From a virus (lineage: Duplodnaviria > Heunggongvirae > Uroviricota > Caudoviricetes): a DNA stretch of 4,830 nucleotides. A model generated the notes under the pieces. It did not search any database. It was not told the origin of the DNA and saw nothing but the letters and a program-made list of their open reading frames with translations. The stretch is from the IMG/VR virus record IMGVR_UViG_3300029107_000017; one strand, 5' to 3'. A program made the translations under genes and the position numbers. This document shows positions 299 through 3,749 of this stretch, one piece after another (the first letter of the stretch is position 1; every line of letters starts with the position of its first letter).

Positions 299-517
299 TT
301 AACGCGGGTATGTAATTATTCTGGCAATGCTTAATGCCGCTGCTTTTTCCAGCCTGGTGATATCCTGCTCCAGAGCGGACAGATTTTCAGCCTGCTTAGC
401 CCTGGCTTCATTGGCCCATTTCAGATCCTGCGCTGCATTAATTTTCTGGCGCATCCACTCATAAAGTTCATCATCGGTATAGTCTGGCGCGATGATGATG
501 GGTTCTCGTTTCTGCAT
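299..517 (-). CDS. ydfC: Small prophage protein, YdfC-like (72 aa), unknown function
   Basis: ORF track 299..517 (-). ATG at 517 preceded by GAGGA with a 6-nt spacer. Third gene downstream of the DicA-like repressor; size (72 aa) and position match ydfC of the Qin dicB operon as I recall it. Confidence 0.7.
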   Translation of the reverse strand: MQKREPIIIAPDYTDDELYEWMRQKINAAQDLKWANEARAKQAENLSALEQDITRLEKAAALSIARIITYPR

Positions 518-546
518 ACTGATTCCTCGCGGTGATGTTTCGCTTA

Positions 547-675
547 TCAGCCGTTATATTTTGCCGAACTGGAAAGCGCCTGTTTAAACTCACTGAAGCT
601 GAGAGCTTCTTCGCCTTCGGCAAGGCCTTCGAAGTATTCTTCGTAAGCCTTTTCCATGATTGCGTCGAAATCCAT
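547..675 (-). CDS. ydfB: Small prophage protein, YdfB-like (42 aa), unknown function
   Basis: Not in the ORF track (below its length cutoff). My translation of the - strand: ATG at 675, MDFDAIMEKAYEEYFEGLAEGEEALSFSEFKQALSSSAKYNG, TGA at 547-549. The ATG sits 1 nt after the ydfA-like stop (TGAtATG); AGGTGAG lies upstream. Size and position match ydfB as recalled. Confidence 0.6.
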   Translation of the reverse strand: MDFDAIMEKAYEEYFEGLAEGEEALSFSEFKQALSSSAKYNG

Positions 676-676
676 A

Positions 677-832
677 TCACTCACCTGAATTTCTTTCCAG
701 CCAGCGACGCGCGCCAGTTTCGGTTTTAAACGTTTTGCTTTTGGTATACGTCATCGCGGTGAACGTGCCGTCCTGGTTGGGAAACACGCCGCACACCAGA
801 GATTCGTTGTTGCTAAGATCGATAGTATCCAT
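677..832 (-). CDS. ydfA: Small prophage protein, YdfA-like (51 aa), unknown function
   Basis: Within track ORF 677..886 (-), whose listed start is a GTG at 886. The internal ATG at 832 has GAGG 5 nt upstream and gives 51 aa (MDTIDLSNNESLV...RWLERNSGE), the size I recall for YdfA. Confidence 0.7.
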   Translation of the reverse strand: MDTIDLSNNESLVCGVFPNQDGTFTAMTYTKSKTFKTETGARRWLERNSGE

Positions 833-904
833 GCTGACCTCATTTCCCCTTAACGCCGGGGTAGCGGAACTGTTTGCTGAGAACACCGTGCGGTGTCTTG
901 ATGA

Positions 905-965
905 GTAGAATTTAGAATAACCTAAGAATGATGGTCAAGCTTTTTGTGTAGAAAAACCTAAGTTT
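905..965 (-). promoter_or_regulatory. Putative leftward promoter for the ydfA-like operon, flanked by two operator-like palindromes
   Basis: Read on the - strand: TTGACC (rc of 933-938), 18-nt spacer, TAAATT (rc of 909-914). Palindromes TTTAG-aataac-CTAAG (911-926) and TGTAG-aaaaac-CTAAG (947-962) bracket the -35. No transcript data. Confidence 0.4.
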
Positions 966-973
966 CTTGATGT

Positions 974-1010
974 AAAAAACACAAGTATTTGAAAGTTTGT
1001 GCTTTTTATT
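974..1010. terminator. Weak bidirectional terminator-like hairpin
   Basis: A6 (974-979), stem CACAA (980-984) / TTGTG (997-1001) with a 12-nt loop, then CTTTTTATT (1002-1010). AT-rich 5-bp stem, so predicted stability is low. Confidence 0.25.
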
Positions 1011-1036: not shown

Positions 1037-1444
1037 TTATTTATTTGCGCTTCTTTTGCGAGCTTTGAGTAGTTCTTCAAAAAGTTTGTTGAAATTCTCA
1101 ACTCGAGCACGCATCTCTGACAACAGAGCCTTTTGCTCTGACTCAGGCAGTGCGTCGAACAGTTGAAGCAACTCTTTTTGATCTTCTGTCAGATTGACTG
1201 GCTGATTATCTGGGATCGGTTCGCCTGGTTGCTTATCTTCATCTCCAAAAAGAAGCCAGGTCGGCGAGCACTGAAGCGCCTGGCTCAGTGCGAATAATCT
1301 CTTCCCCGCTGGCTGTGTTTCATCTCTTTCCCATTGAGAAATTGTTACGTGAGCCACTTTGACCAGCTTACCTAATGCGGCCTGAGACAGTTTTAATTTT
1401 TTACGCCTGTATAAGAGGCGAGCACCGAAGGTTTCGTTTTTCAT
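1037..1444 (-). CDS. dicA: DicA-like prophage repressor (XRE-family HTH, 135 aa, no peptidase domain)
   Basis: ORF track 1037..1444 (-). Same length as E. coli DicA (135 aa) and shares long motifs with it as I recall the sequence: SQWER, LFALS..LQCSPTW.LFGDEDKQP, LPESEQ, EMRARV.NFNKLFEELLKAR. Divergent from a Cro-like gene. Confidence 0.85.
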   Translation of the reverse strand: MKNETFGARLLYRRKKLKLSQAALGKLVKVAHVTISQWERDETQPAGKRLFALSQALQCSPTWLLFGDEDKQPGEPIPDNQPVNLTEDQKELLQLFDALPESEQKALLSEMRARVENFNKLFEELLKARKRSANK

Positions 1445-1520
1445 ATTAGGTAATTCTAATTTCTCTTGACTTAGGTTTCTCTACAATCTAGTTTCCTTAG
1501 GAAAATCTAAGGAGTTCGAT
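1445..1520. promoter_or_regulatory. Divergent promoter/operator region between the repressor and the Cro-like gene
   Basis: Three YTTAG-N6-CTAAR sites: ATTAG-gtaatt-CTAAT (1445-1460), CTTAG-gtttct-CTACA (1470-1485), CTTAG-gaaaat-CTAAG (1496-1511), centres about 25 bp apart. Rightward elements: TTGACT (1466-1471), TACAAT (1482-1487), TAAGGAG (1508-1514). Leftward: TAGAAT (rc of 1453-1458) 8 nt before the repressor ATG. Confidence 0.55.
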
Positions 1521-1748
1521 ATGTTGAAAATTGATGCTATAGCGTTTTTTGGCAGCAAAACAAAGCTTGCCAATGTCGCAGGAGTTAGGCTGGCAAGCGT
1601 TGCAGCATGGGGGGAACTGGTTCCTGAAGGTCGCGCGATGCGCCTGCAAGAGGCATCCGGCGGGGAACTTCAGTACGACCCCAAAGTTTATGACGAATAT
1701 CGTAAGGCAAAGCGGGTGGGGCGGTTGAACAATGAAAATCACCCCTGA
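1521..1748 (+). CDS. dicC: Cro/DicC-like small HTH regulator (75 aa)
   Basis: ORF track 1521..1748 (+). TAAGGAG SD with a 6-nt spacer before the ATG. HTH-like segment GSKTKLANVAGVRLASVAAW. Divergent from the DicA-like repressor, as dicC is in Qin. Confidence 0.8.
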   Translation: MLKIDAIAFFGSKTKLANVAGVRLASVAAWGELVPEGRAMRLQEASGGELQYDPKVYDEYRKAKRVGRLNNENHP

Positions 1749-2283: not shown

Positions 2284-3295
2284 AAAGGTGAAAACCGGCA
2301 GTTCATCCAGTAAGTCAGTATTGACCTGGCTTGCTGATATGTGCGGTGCCGATTTGTGTGCATACCCGTCTGTATCTGCACTGGCAGAAGTAACGGAACT
2401 GAACAAAAAGACTGTGCAGGACAGCTTACGATACCTGATGGAGATTGGGTTAATTGTTGATACCGGTGAGAGAAAAGGCCGAACAAAGCAAATCGTGGTG
2501 TACCGACTTATCGGTGTAGAAGAAAGCGTTGCCGAGCCTGAATACACCCAAAAACGGGAGTCTTTAAAGGTGAGTAAAATTGGTGCTGTTAATAAAAACA
2601 GTACCGAAAATGGTTATGTTTCAGCACAAAACAGACCCAAAAACGGAACTCTTAGCTGCATGGAAAATAACCAAAGACACCCAAATTTTCCATCAAAGAC
2701 ACCCAAAAACGGATCACGGAACCCAAAGGAATCCAAAGATCTAAACCCCACACATAACGCACGCGAGAGTGCTCCGACCAGTGAGCAGGAAGTTTTGTCG
2801 TTACAGGCAGCACCCCTTGTATTCCTGGATGGCCTGAGCGAACCCATCGGAAAATTTCCGATGACCGATAGCTGGTATCCGTCACGGGATTTTCGACGAC
2901 GGGCTGCGTTGTGGGGGATGGCTTTGCCGGAGACAGAATTTACACCTGCTGAACTTGCCGCCTTCCGGGACTACTGGGCAGCGGAGGGGAAAGTGTTTAC
3001 GCAGATTCAGTGGGAGCAGAAATTCGCCCGTCACGTAAATCACGTCAGGGCGCAGGTTAAACCAGTCAGCAAGGGGGTAAACCATGCAGCAGCACCAGGT
3101 GGCACCGCATCACGGGCAGTTCAGGAAATTCGGGCAGCACGTGAGCAGTGGGAACGTGAAAACGGATTTATCAGCGACGGAAACAGCCTGGAAGCTGTGG
3201 GAACTCATGGGGGAGGTTTATTCGAACCGCTGGACCCAGAAGAACGGGGCCGCACCTTCGAAGCTCTGGATTGCACAGATTGGTGCGATGACTGA
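2255..3295 (+). CDS. Replication initiation protein: N-terminal HTH domain fused to a DnaT-like C-terminal domain (O-like)
   Basis: Track ORF 2180..3295 begins at a TTG. The in-frame ATG at 2255 has AGGGG 5 nt upstream and is the likely start (346 aa). N-terminus matches phage HTH initiator proteins. Residues around GKFPMTDSWYPSRDFRRRAALWGMALPE...YWAAEGKVFTQIQWEQKFAR closely parallel the E. coli DnaT C-terminal region as I recall it. Confidence 0.8.
   Translation: MSIDALRWAKKVKTGSSSSKSVLTWLADMCGADLCAYPSVSALAEVTELNKKTVQDSLRYLMEIGLIVDTGERKGRTKQIVVYRLIGVEESVAEPEYTQKRESLKVSKIGAVNKNSTENGYVSAQNRPKNGTLSCMENNQRHPNFPSKTPKNGSRNPKESKDLNPTHNARESAPTSEQEVLSLQAAPLVFLDGLSEPIGKFPMTDSWYPSRDFRRRAALWGMALPETEFTPAELAAFRDYWAAEGKVFTQIQWEQKFARHVNHVRAQVKPVSKGVNHAAAPGGTASRAVQEIRAAREQWERENGFISDGNSLEAVGTHGGGLFEPLDPEERGRTFEALDCTDWCDD
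2544..2730. repeat. Phased ACCCAAA(AACGG) direct repeats inside the initiator gene; candidate origin iterons
   Basis: ACCCAAA at 2546, 2635, 2679, 2701, 2721; three copies extend to (A/G)ACCCAAAAACGG(A/G). Spacings 89, 44, 22, 20 bp are near multiples of two helical turns. AT-rich stretch at about 2562-2632. The repeats also encode a Pro/Lys/Asn-rich interdomain linker. Confidence 0.4.
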
Positions 3296-3749
3296 GCAGC
3301 AAATCCGACAGGTCTGCCGCCAGTGCATGGACCGCTGCCGGGCGGGTGAAACATGGCCTCCGGACCTGGCTGAGTTTGTGGCGCTGATTTCTGAAAGCGG
3401 AGCCAATCCATTCGGTCTGACGGTGGATGCCGTGATGGAGGAGTACCGTCGCTGGCGCAACGAGTCCTGGCGATACGACGGGAGCGATAAATACCCGTGG
3501 TCTCAGCCTGTGCTGTATCACATTTGCCTCGAGATGCGTTCAAAGGGGATTGAGCGGCAGATGACCGAAGGGGAGTTAAAACGGCTTGCAGAACGGCAGC
3601 TGACGAAATGGGCAAAGCATGTTAGTAACGGCCTGAGTGTTCCGCCTATCCGGCGACAACTGGCAGCACCCAAACGTCCTGCGGGACCAACGCCAATTGA
3701 GTTGCTGAAACAGGAATATGAACGCCGGAAAGCGGCTGGGTTTGTCTGA
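3084..3749 (+). CDS. Lambda P-like replication protein (helicase loader), 221 aa
   Basis: ORF track 3084..3749 (+). ATG at 3084 preceded by AGGGGG (3072-3077) with a 6-nt spacer. Central and C-terminal segments (WPPDLAEFVAL; YPWSQPVLYHICLEMRSKGIERQMTEGELKRLAERQL) parallel lambda P (FLPSPGQFVAWC; YPWKSNAHYWLVTNLYQNMRANALTDAELRRKAADEL) as I recall it. Confidence 0.8.
   Translation: MQQHQVAPHHGQFRKFGQHVSSGNVKTDLSATETAWKLWELMGEVYSNRWTQKNGAAPSKLWIAQIGAMTEQQIRQVCRQCMDRCRAGETWPPDLAEFVALISESGANPFGLTVDAVMEEYRRWRNESWRYDGSDKYPWSQPVLYHICLEMRSKGIERQMTEGELKRLAERQLTKWAKHVSNGLSVPPIRRQLAAPKRPAGPTPIELLKQEYERRKAAGFV

What the first reader, a model, noticed from the sequence alone, without database searches (positions are those of the whole stretch)
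1442..1460. Repressor gene appears leaderless, like lambda cI from PRM
No SD precedes the repressor ATG at 1444. A TAGAAT -10 (rc of 1453-1458) sits 8 nt upstream, which would put the transcription start at or next to the A of the ATG. The -35 is poor, consistent with a promoter needing activation, and the -10 lies inside the first operator palindrome, implying autoregulation.
Basis: inference. Interest (0 to 1): 0.45.

Follow-up and report, generated by a model that had tools for sequence, protein, structure and literature searches.

The report
Near-leaderless DicA-type prophage repressor gene
The repressor gene of this E. coli prophage almost certainly makes an mRNA that starts at or within 2-3 bases of its ATG and has no ribosome-binding leader, which is a known trait of its E. 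coli K-12 homologue dicA and of lambda cI, so it is real but ordinary.

Summary
The 135-aa repressor (1037-1444, minus strand) starts at the only possible ATG. It has no Shine-Dalgarno sequence (anti-SD duplex +0.2 kcal/mol, against -6 to -12 for neighbouring genes). A TAGAAT hexamer (1458->1453) lies 8 nt upstream, inside a TTAG-N6-CTAA operator.

The window is a DicA/DicC-type (Qin-like) lambdoid immunity region of E. coli. It is 98% identical to the PPompW prophages of STEC. The repressor is 63% identical to K-12 DicA and the cro-like protein is 81% identical to DicC.

K-12 dicA is a published leaderless mRNA, with its transcription start about 3 nt before the ATG, confirmed by RLM-RT-PCR and Rend-seq. 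That start lies about 7 nt after the aligned hexamer TAGCAT. By analogy the start here is A1446 or A1447, giving a 2-3 nt leader, or possibly A1444.

In 48 distinct relatives (17 lineages, several operator types), a TAnnnT hexamer always lies 6-9 nt before an ATG. There is no SD and the -35 is never better than 3/6. The divergent PR -35 sits exactly 7 bp away in 46 of 48.

It is a new member of a known kind, of low interest.

The parts
1037..1444 (-). Repressor CDS: 135 aa, a DicA homologue with an N-terminal HTH_3 domain and no S24 peptidase domain
   Evidence: ORF. Pfam HTH_3, E = 4e-14. 63% identical to K-12 DicA over 131 aa. PGAP annotates the same CDS in strain NE92.
1442..1444 (-). ATG start codon of the repressor
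   Evidence: First start codon after the upstream stop, with no alternative nearby. An ATG is present at this position in all 48 distinct relatives.
1444..1447 (-). Predicted transcription start zone: A1447 or A1446 by register with K-12 dicA, possibly A1444. The leader would be 0-3 nt.
   Evidence: Inferred. The K-12 start lies about 7 nt after the aligned hexamer. Here the 6th, 7th and 9th nt after TAGAAT are A.
1453..1458 (-). -10 hexamer TAGAAT of the repressor promoter (PRM analogue, equivalent to dicAp)
   Evidence: TAnnnT is conserved 6-9 nt before the ATG in 48 of 48 relatives.
1476..1481 (-). Position of the repressor promoter's -35: GAGAAA, 3/6 match, i.e. effectively no -35
   Evidence: The best -35 in the family is never above 3/6.
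1446..1459 (.). Repressor-proximal operator (Oa equivalent), TTAGGTAATTCTAA. It covers the -10 and the start of the repressor promoter.
   Evidence: It aligns with K-12 TTAGCATTAGCTAA.
1471..1484 (.). Middle operator (Om equivalent), TTAGGTTTCTCTAC
1495..1512 (.). cro-proximal operator (Oc equivalent), CCTTAG-GAAAAT-CTAAGG. It covers the PR start and part of the cro-like SD.
   Evidence: K-12 Oc, TTGTTAGTCATAACTAACAA, is the site shown to bind DicA (PMC3441716).
1466..1494 (+). PR analogue (dicCp equivalent): TTGACT (1466-1471), a 17-nt spacer, then TAGTTT (1489-1494). It lies back-to-back with the repressor promoter and overlaps it.
   Evidence: TTGAC is invariant in 17 lineages and lies exactly 7 bp from the repressor -10 in 46 of 48 sequences.
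1509..1748 (+). SD AAGGAG (1509-1514) and the cro/DicC-like CDS (1521-1748)
   Evidence: P22_Cro, E = 3e-13. 81% identical to K-12 DicC. Anti-SD duplex -8.6 kcal/mol.
973..1008 (-). Hairpin with a 12-bp stem and U-run after the repressor stop codon. Probable terminator of the monocistronic repressor mRNA.
   Evidence: repeat I9. MFE -11.2 kcal/mol, z = -3.4.
909..961 (-). PL analogue (dicBp equivalent): TTGACC, an 18-nt spacer, then TAAATT (938->909), with two OL operators at 912-925 and 948-961

Best explanation
The window holds the immunity switch of a Qin-like (DicA/DicC-type) lambdoid prophage.

The repressor gene is transcribed leftward from a weak sigma-70 promoter. This promoter consists essentially of a good -10 (TAGAAT, 1458->1453) with no usable -35. 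Transcription starts at A1446 or A1447, and possibly A1444. The mRNA therefore begins 5'-(A)AUAUG or 5'-AUG and has no Shine-Dalgarno leader. Translation uses the leaderless (5'-proximal AUG) route, which is inefficient for 1-4 nt leaders and so keeps repressor levels low.

The promoter lies back-to-back with the strong rightward promoter PR (TTGACT, 17-nt spacer, TAGTTT) and overlaps it. The PR -35 sits 7 bp from the repressor -10, and the two starts are about 55 bp apart. RNA polymerase at PR should therefore exclude polymerase from the repressor promoter. Repressor bound at the cro-proximal operator (1495-1512) shuts PR and thereby permits its own transcription.

The operator at 1446-1459 covers the repressor promoter's -10 and start. 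It shuts the promoter when occupied, either by the Cro-like protein or by excess repressor.

What is shown and what is inferred:
- Shown here: the sequence anatomy, the homology and the family-wide conservation.
- Shown in the literature for the K-12 homologue: the start site about 3 nt before the ATG, DicA binding at Oc, and DicA-dependent dicA transcription.
- Inferred: the exact start in this phage, the occlusion mechanism, and which protein occupies the proximal operator.
For: - Anatomy at the stated coordinates.
- No SD: +0.2 kcal/mol, against -6 to -12 for neighbouring genes.
- The first 10 nt of the predicted mRNA are unpaired.
- The window is 98% identical to PPompW prophages annotated dicA/dicC and is present in 1416 of 5426 E. 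coli genomes.
- The repressor is 63% identical to K-12 DicA and the cro-like protein is 81% identical to DicC.
- K-12 dicA is one of five leaderless mRNAs found by dRNA-seq, with its start 3 nt before the ATG. TAP-dependent RLM-RT-PCR confirmed a primary 5' end (PMC4681348).
- dicA is also called leaderless (5'UTR of 5 nt or less) from Rend-seq data (PMC8794815).
- The K-12 hexamer TAGCAT aligns with TAGAAT here, and the mapped start is about the 7th nt after it.
- All 48 distinct relatives have an ATG, a TAnnnT 6-9 nt upstream and no SD. The -35 is at most 3/6. The PR -35 is exactly 7 bp from the repressor -10 in 46 of 48.
- In K-12, DicA binds Oc, represses dicC and is needed for dicA promoter activity, and those authors saw no consensus dicA promoter (PMC3441716).
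- DicA is present at about 20-25 copies per cell (table reprinted in PMC7567609).
- Short leaders depress leaderless initiation (PMC8459731).
Against: - No start site has been mapped on this sequence. The inference rests on a homologue with 63% protein identity, whose hexamer-to-ATG gap is 9 nt against 8 nt here.
- The coordinate convention in the K-12 table leaves the start uncertain by 1 nt.
- TAGAAT overlaps an operator half-site (TTAG). Part of its conservation could therefore reflect protein binding rather than promoter function.
- Two other weak -10-like hexamers exist upstream on the same strand (TAGATT at 1490->1485 and 1509->1504). They could give minor leadered transcripts, as racR has several promoters (PMC9638921).
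- Reg-Seq found no active RNA polymerase site in the K-12 dicA promoter window (PMC7567609).
- Occlusion relief and direct activation were not distinguished.
Confidence: 0.8

Rival explanations
1. The repressor mRNA is exactly leaderless. Transcription starts at A1444, giving 5'-AUG as in lambda cI, racR and ymfK, rather than at A1446 or A1447.
For: A1444 is a purine preceded by a pyrimidine (T1445) and is the 9th nt after the hexamer, which is within the range polymerase can use (my own knowledge of start-site selection). An exact 5'-AUG is the best substrate for leaderless initiation (PMC8459731). Family members with 6-7 nt gaps (L013, L018, L015) would start on or next to the A.
Against: In K-12 the mapped start is about the 7th nt after the hexamer, not at the ATG. 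The same register here gives A1446. A 9-nt distance is less favoured than 6-8 nt.
Confidence: 0.2
2. The main repressor transcript is leadered. It starts from an upstream promoter: either one of the TAGATT hexamers at 1490->1485 or 1509->1504, or a PRE-like promoter inside or beyond the cro-like gene. It is translated without an SD through its AU-rich leader (S1-dependent). On this reading TAGAAT is only operator sequence.
For: Two 4/6 -10-like hexamers lie upstream on the minus strand. racR uses three promoters (PMC9638921). Lambda has PRE for establishment (textbook knowledge). The region upstream of the ATG is AU-rich.
Against: The homologue's only detected primary start is about 3 nt from the ATG. 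The hexamer at 1490->1485 is TAGATC in most close relatives, so it is not conserved. Both hexamers have poor -35 elements. By contrast, TAnnnT next to the ATG is kept in all 17 lineages despite changes in the operators.
Confidence: 0.1
3. The repressor activates its own promoter by direct contact with RNA polymerase, as lambda cI does at OR2 or a class I activator does, rather than by removing competition from PR.
For: DicA is needed for dicA promoter activity in K-12, and the authors proposed activation (PMC3441716). The -35 is poor, as at lambda PRM. The Oc equivalent is centred near -57.5 relative to A1446, roughly a class I-like position (computed).
Against: The operators are about one helical turn closer to the repressor promoter than in lambda. 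Om is centred at -31.5, over the -35 position, and no operator is centred at -42. The PR -35 lies inside the repressor promoter's spacer at an invariant 7-bp distance, which predicts mutually exclusive polymerase binding. This was reported for phage 434 (Xu and Koudelka 2000, cited in PMC4848623; the content is from my own knowledge).
Confidence: 0.3

Closest known systems
dicA of the Qin (Kim) cryptic prophage, E. coli K-12 (dicA-dicC immunity region)
   Same: It is a homologous 135-aa repressor (63% identity) with a homologous divergent DicC (81%). Both have three TTAG-N6-CTAA operators, a PR of the form TTGACT-17-TAnnnT, and a repressor -10 (TAGCAT there, TAGAAT here) embedded in the proximal operator, exactly 7 bp from the PR -35. 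Neither has an SD. The K-12 mRNA is documented as leaderless, with a leader of about 3 nt.
   Different: The hexamer-to-ATG gap is 8 nt here and 9 nt in K-12. The hexamer here is closer to consensus (5/6 against 4/6). The operator spacer sequences differ, and the N-terminus is two residues shorter. The phage here appears intact and widespread (PPompW type in STEC), whereas Qin is a cryptic remnant. No experimental mapping exists for this variant.
Lambda cI transcribed from PRM
   Same: Both are divergent repressor/cro switches with three operators. Both repressor promoters have a weak -35 and depend on repressor. Both repressor mRNAs lack an SD leader. In both, the proximal operator overlaps the repressor promoter.
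   Different: There is no sequence homology beyond the HTH. Lambda starts exactly on the A of the ATG, with 6 nt after TAGATT. Lambda's two starts are about 83 bp apart and OR2 is centred at -42, which allows sigma contact. Here the starts are about 55 bp apart, the promoters overlap, and no operator lies at -42. The repressor here lacks the RecA-cleavable C-terminal domain.
Other leaderless prophage repressors of E. coli: racR (Rac), ymfK/cohE (e14) and paaR2 (CP-933P)
   Same: All are HTH repressors at the cI position of lambdoid prophages, divergent from a cro/ydaS-like gene. For each, the start site was mapped at the start codon (PMC4681348; PMC9638921; PMC8630535).
   Different: They belong to different protein families, with low similarity to DicA. 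Their mapped leaders are 0 nt. racR has additional upstream promoters.
Phage 434 OR (mutually exclusive use of PR and PRM)
   Same: It provides a proposed mechanism in which polymerase at PR prevents use of PRM, so that repression of PR contributes to apparent activation of PRM.
   Different: The comparison rests on my recollection of Xu and Koudelka 2000; only the citation was seen here. The proteins and operators are different. The mechanism has not been tested for any DicA-type switch.

Membership tests
Leaderless or near-leaderless bacterial mRNA | The primary 5' end lies at, or within about 5 nt of, the start codon | not testable with these tools
   No transcript data exist for this sequence. 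The K-12 homologue dicA was mapped at about -3 (PMC4681348; PMC8794815). The register of the conserved -10 predicts -2 or -3 here.
Leaderless or near-leaderless bacterial mRNA | No Shine-Dalgarno sequence upstream of the start codon | tested here: met
   The anti-SD duplex is +0.2 kcal/mol, against -6 to -12 for neighbouring genes. In 47 of 48 relatives it is no stronger than -2.2.
Leaderless or near-leaderless bacterial mRNA | An AUG (not GUG or UUG) start codon and an unstructured 5' end | tested here: met
   ATG is found here and in all 48 relatives. The first 10 nt are unpaired in both the MFE and centroid structures.
Leaderless or near-leaderless bacterial mRNA | A -10 element placed so that initiation falls at or next to the AUG | tested here: met
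   TAGAAT lies 8 nt before the ATG. Only 2.9% of shuffles give this by chance. It is conserved in 48 of 48 relatives at 6-9 nt.
DicA/DicC-type (Qin-like) lambdoid immunity region | A DicA-homologous short HTH repressor without an S24 peptidase domain | tested here: met
   63% identity over 131 of 135 aa. Pfam finds only HTH families.
DicA/DicC-type (Qin-like) lambdoid immunity region | A divergent DicC (P22_Cro family) gene, followed by a YdaT/YdfX-like gene | tested here: met
   81% identity to DicC. Pfam P22_Cro and YdaT_toxin hits.
DicA/DicC-type (Qin-like) lambdoid immunity region | Three inverted-repeat operators between the two genes, and further copies at the leftward promoter | tested here: met
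   TTAG-N6-CTAA at 1446, 1471 and 1497, and at 912 and 948. Six sites are found against 1.36 expected. They align with K-12 Oa, Om and Oc.
DicA/DicC-type (Qin-like) lambdoid immunity region | The repressor binds the operators and represses the dicC and dicB promoters | not testable with these tools
   This is shown only for K-12 DicA at Oc (PMC3441716; bioRxiv 10.1101/2023.04.14.536235).
Lambda-PRM-type contact activation | An operator centred near -42 of the repressor promoter, from which bound repressor touches sigma region 4 | tested here: not met
   Relative to A1446, the operator centres lie at -6.5, -31.5 and -57.5 (computed). The PR -35 lies within the repressor promoter's spacer.

The most novel reading that the evidence does not exclude
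DicA-type prophage switches may form a hard-wired, ultra-compact back-to-back promoter module, kept across at least 17 lineages and several operator specificities. In this module the PR -35 lies exactly 7 bp from the repressor -10, and the repressor promoter has no -35. The promoter would be unlocked purely by steric exclusion of RNA polymerase from PR, not by activator contact. The 0-4 nt leader length, set by a 6-9 nt hexamer-to-ATG gap, would act as an evolvable dial. It would set repressor translation, and hence lysogen stability, at a few tens of molecules per cell.
Probability: 0.35. Interest if true: 0.35.

Novelty: new member of a known kind. Interest (0 to 1): 0.17.

Why it matters
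Leaderless mRNAs are rare in E. coli: five were found in K-12 by dRNA-seq, three of them prophage repressors. This adds a widespread STEC prophage repressor (PPompW type, related sequence in about a quarter of complete E. coli genomes) to that small class. It also shows that the leaderless layout is a conserved property of the whole DicA family, not a quirk of the decayed Qin prophage.

In practice, it tells annotators that the ATG at 1444 is correct despite the missing RBS. It also predicts low, kasugamycin-tolerant or stress-tolerant repressor synthesis, which may bear on prophage stability in Shiga-toxin strains. It does not change any concept.

Tried and rejected
- The generic sigma-70 scan did not report the repressor promoter or PR, because neither reaches its 9/12 threshold. 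It was useful only for the PL-like site.
- Rfam, run on the whole window, found nothing. No known RNA element explains the region.
- Reg-Seq (PMC7567609) was consulted for an RNA polymerase footprint at dicA. It reported no active start in its window, so it neither helps nor contradicts.
- I looked for start-site maps of O157 strains that carry this prophage type. None covers this gene.
- I tried to read Xu and Koudelka 2000 (PMC94503), but it is not held. The 434 comparison therefore rests on my own knowledge plus the citation.
- TACAAT (1482-1487, plus strand) was considered as the PR -10. It was rejected because it lies only 10 bp from TTGACT and reads TACGAT in most relatives.
- TAGAGA was considered as a lambda-like -35 for the repressor promoter. 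It was rejected because the spacer would be 19 nt.
- Five fetched loci (L019, L020, L076, L077, L085) had no assignable ATG, being truncated or degraded, and were left out.

Full report
**What is in the window**

The 4830-bp window is the immunity and early replication region of a lambdoid prophage of E. coli.
- The stretch 880-1760 is 98.3% identical to PPompW prophages of Shiga-toxin E. coli, where the two central genes are annotated dicA and dicC.
- Similar sequence occurs in 1416 of 5426 complete E. coli genomes, 751 of them with a match covering at least 80% of the query.
- Leftward genes: a 135-aa HTH_3 repressor (1037-1444), followed by YdfA-, YdfB- and YdfC-like small genes.
- Rightward genes: a P22_Cro-family gene (1521-1748), a YdaT-like gene, a gene with a DnaT-like domain at the lambda O position, a lambda-P-like gene and a DUF1627 gene.
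- The repressor is 63% identical to K-12 DicA, and the Cro-like protein is 81% identical to DicC.

**Checking the observation**

The minus strand reads ...AAGTCAAGAGAAAT-TAGAAT-TACCTAAT-ATG.
- The ATG (1444->1442) is the first start codon after the upstream stop and has no nearby alternative. PGAP uses the same start in strain NE92.
- TAGAAT (1458->1453) matches the -10 consensus at 5/6 and lies 8 nt from the A of the ATG.
- The 20 nt upstream of the ATG cannot pair with the 16S 3' end (+0.2 kcal/mol). The other genes in the window give -5.9 to -11.8.
- At a 17-nt spacer the -35 is GAGAAA, a 3/6 match.
- The hexamer lies inside TTAG-GTAATT-CTAA (1446-1459). Six such sites occur in the window against 1.36 expected by chance. 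Three lie between the divergent genes (1446, 1471, 1497) and two lie at a PL-like promoter (912, 948).
- In isolation, a hexamer this good at this distance arises in 2.9% of shuffles. The single-sequence evidence is therefore moderate.

**Comparative evidence**

I fetched 99 loci that encode relatives of the repressor, from isolate genomes and viral contigs. They yielded 48 distinct upstream regions, falling into 17 lineages at 50-100% protein identity and with several different operator sequences.
- All 48 have an ATG at the aligned start.
- All have a TAnnnT hexamer 6-9 nt upstream: TAGAAT, TAGCAT, TAGTAT, TAAGAT or TATATT.
- None has a usable SD. The one apparent exception, L018, has GAGG directly abutting the ATG.
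- None has a -35 better than 3/6.
- The reverse complement of a TTGAC(T/A/C) hexamer, the -35 of the rightward promoter, is invariant. It lies exactly 7 bp from the repressor -10 in 46 of 48 sequences.

The hexamer persists where the operator half-sites have changed. That argues it is constrained as a promoter element and not only as an operator.

**Experimental evidence from the homologue**

- K-12 dicA is one of only five leaderless mRNAs (leader under 10 nt) found by differential RNA-seq. Its start site lies 3 nt before the ATG. TAP-dependent RLM-RT-PCR confirmed it as a primary end (PMC4681348). The coordinate convention of that table leaves an uncertainty of 1 nt.
- An independent Rend-seq-based analysis lists dicA among leaderless genes, with a 5'UTR of 5 nt or less (PMC8794815).
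- In K-12 the sequence is TAGCAT-TAGCTA-A-CT-ATG. The start is therefore about the 7th nt after the hexamer that aligns with TAGAAT here.
- Applying the same register to the window gives A1446, or A1447. That is a 2-3 nt leader, 5'-(A)AUAUG. A1444 is the 9th nt after the hexamer and remains possible.
- The predicted 5' end is unpaired.
- Other prophage repressors at the cI position, namely racR, ymfK and paaR2, are also experimentally leaderless.

**How it most likely works**

The repressor promoter and PR (TTGACT 1466-1471, 17-nt spacer, TAGTTT 1489-1494) lie back-to-back and overlap.
- The two predicted starts are about 55 bp apart, against about 83 bp in lambda.
- The PR -35 sits inside the repressor promoter's spacer.
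- Relative to A1446, the operator centres lie at -6.5, -31.5 and -57.5. None lies at the lambda OR2 position of -42.

In K-12, DicA binds the dicC-proximal operator Oc. It represses dicC and is required for dicA promoter activity, and the authors saw no consensus dicA promoter. Oa and Om alone did not bind DicA in their in vivo assay (PMC3441716). DicC overexpression lowers dicA expression (PMC6915034).

My best reading has three parts:
1. Repressor bound at the Oc equivalent (1495-1512, covering the PR start and the cro-like SD) removes polymerase from PR. This frees the overlapping, -35-less repressor promoter.
2. The proximal operator (1446-1459) covers the repressor promoter's -10 and start, and shuts it when occupied by the Cro-like protein or by excess repressor.
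3. The SD-less, very short leader gives inefficient translation. This is consistent with about 20-25 DicA molecules per cell and with the known penalty of 1-4 nt leaders (PMC8459731).

Occlusion relief and direct activation could not be separated here.

A 12-bp hairpin with a U-run (973-1008, z = -3.4) probably terminates the monocistronic repressor mRNA of about 470 nt, ahead of PL.

**Comparison and novelty**

By membership it is a DicA/DicC (Qin-type) switch, whose K-12 representative is already documented as leaderless. It fails the one lambda-specific feature tested, an operator at -42.

It is therefore a new member of a known kind. The additions are modest:
- The leaderless layout and a rigid 7-bp PR/PRM geometry are conserved family-wide.
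- The likely leader here is 2-3 nt rather than 0.
- Self-repression at the proximal operator is not supported by the K-12 data.

Interest is low.

Noticed in passing
window 1453-1471, and loci L002-L100: The -35 of the rightward promoter (TTGACT, 1466-1471) lies exactly 7 bp from the repressor -10 in 46 of 48 distinct family sequences, across 17 lineages. The two divergent promoters overlap and their starts are only about 55 bp apart. This suggests mutually exclusive RNA polymerase binding.
   Followed up: partly
window 973-1008 (minus strand): A 12-bp AT-rich hairpin followed by U residues lies just after the repressor stop codon (MFE -11.2 kcal/mol, z = -3.4). It is probably a terminator separating the repressor transcript from the PL-like promoter. 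The generic terminator scan did not call it.
   Followed up: partly
window 909-961: A PL-like promoter (TTGACC, 18-nt spacer, TAAATT; minus strand, 938->909) is overlapped by two further operator copies (912-925 and 948-961). This is the counterpart of dicBp in Qin. In the related O157:H7 NE92 prophage a dicB gene lies further downstream.
   Followed up: partly
window 1507-1514: The Shine-Dalgarno sequence of the cro-like gene (AAGGAG, 1509-1514) overlaps the right half-site of the cro-proximal operator (CTAAGG, 1507-1512). The operator sequence and the ribosome-binding site are therefore mutually constrained.
   Followed up: no
window 3084-3749: The mechanical ORF for the lambda-P-like protein starts at 3084. 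PGAP in a 98%-identical prophage starts it at the position equivalent to ATG 3288, which overlaps the stop of the upstream gene with the DnaT-like domain (ATGACTGA). The longer ORF is probably not real.
   Followed up: partly
window 1037-1444: The repressor has no S24 (LexA-like) autocleavage domain. Induction probably depends on an antirepressor, as reported for Qin DicA and the Gifsy repressors (bioRxiv 10.1101/2023.04.14.536235). No antirepressor gene lies in this window.
   Followed up: no
window 1482-1487: The window has TACAAT where most close relatives have TACGAT (T at 1486 in place of C). This creates a 5/6 -10-like hexamer on the plus strand and TAGATT on the minus strand. Neither has a properly spaced -35.
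   Followed up: partly
window 474-886, against L101 2595-2894: The small leftward genes here resemble K-12 ydfA and ydfB, including a DUF1391 ORF whose likely start is ATG 832 with a good SD. The 98%-identical NE92 prophage is instead annotated with a single 99-aa hypothetical protein over part of this stretch. This suggests a frameshift or an annotation difference between the relatives.
   Followed up: no
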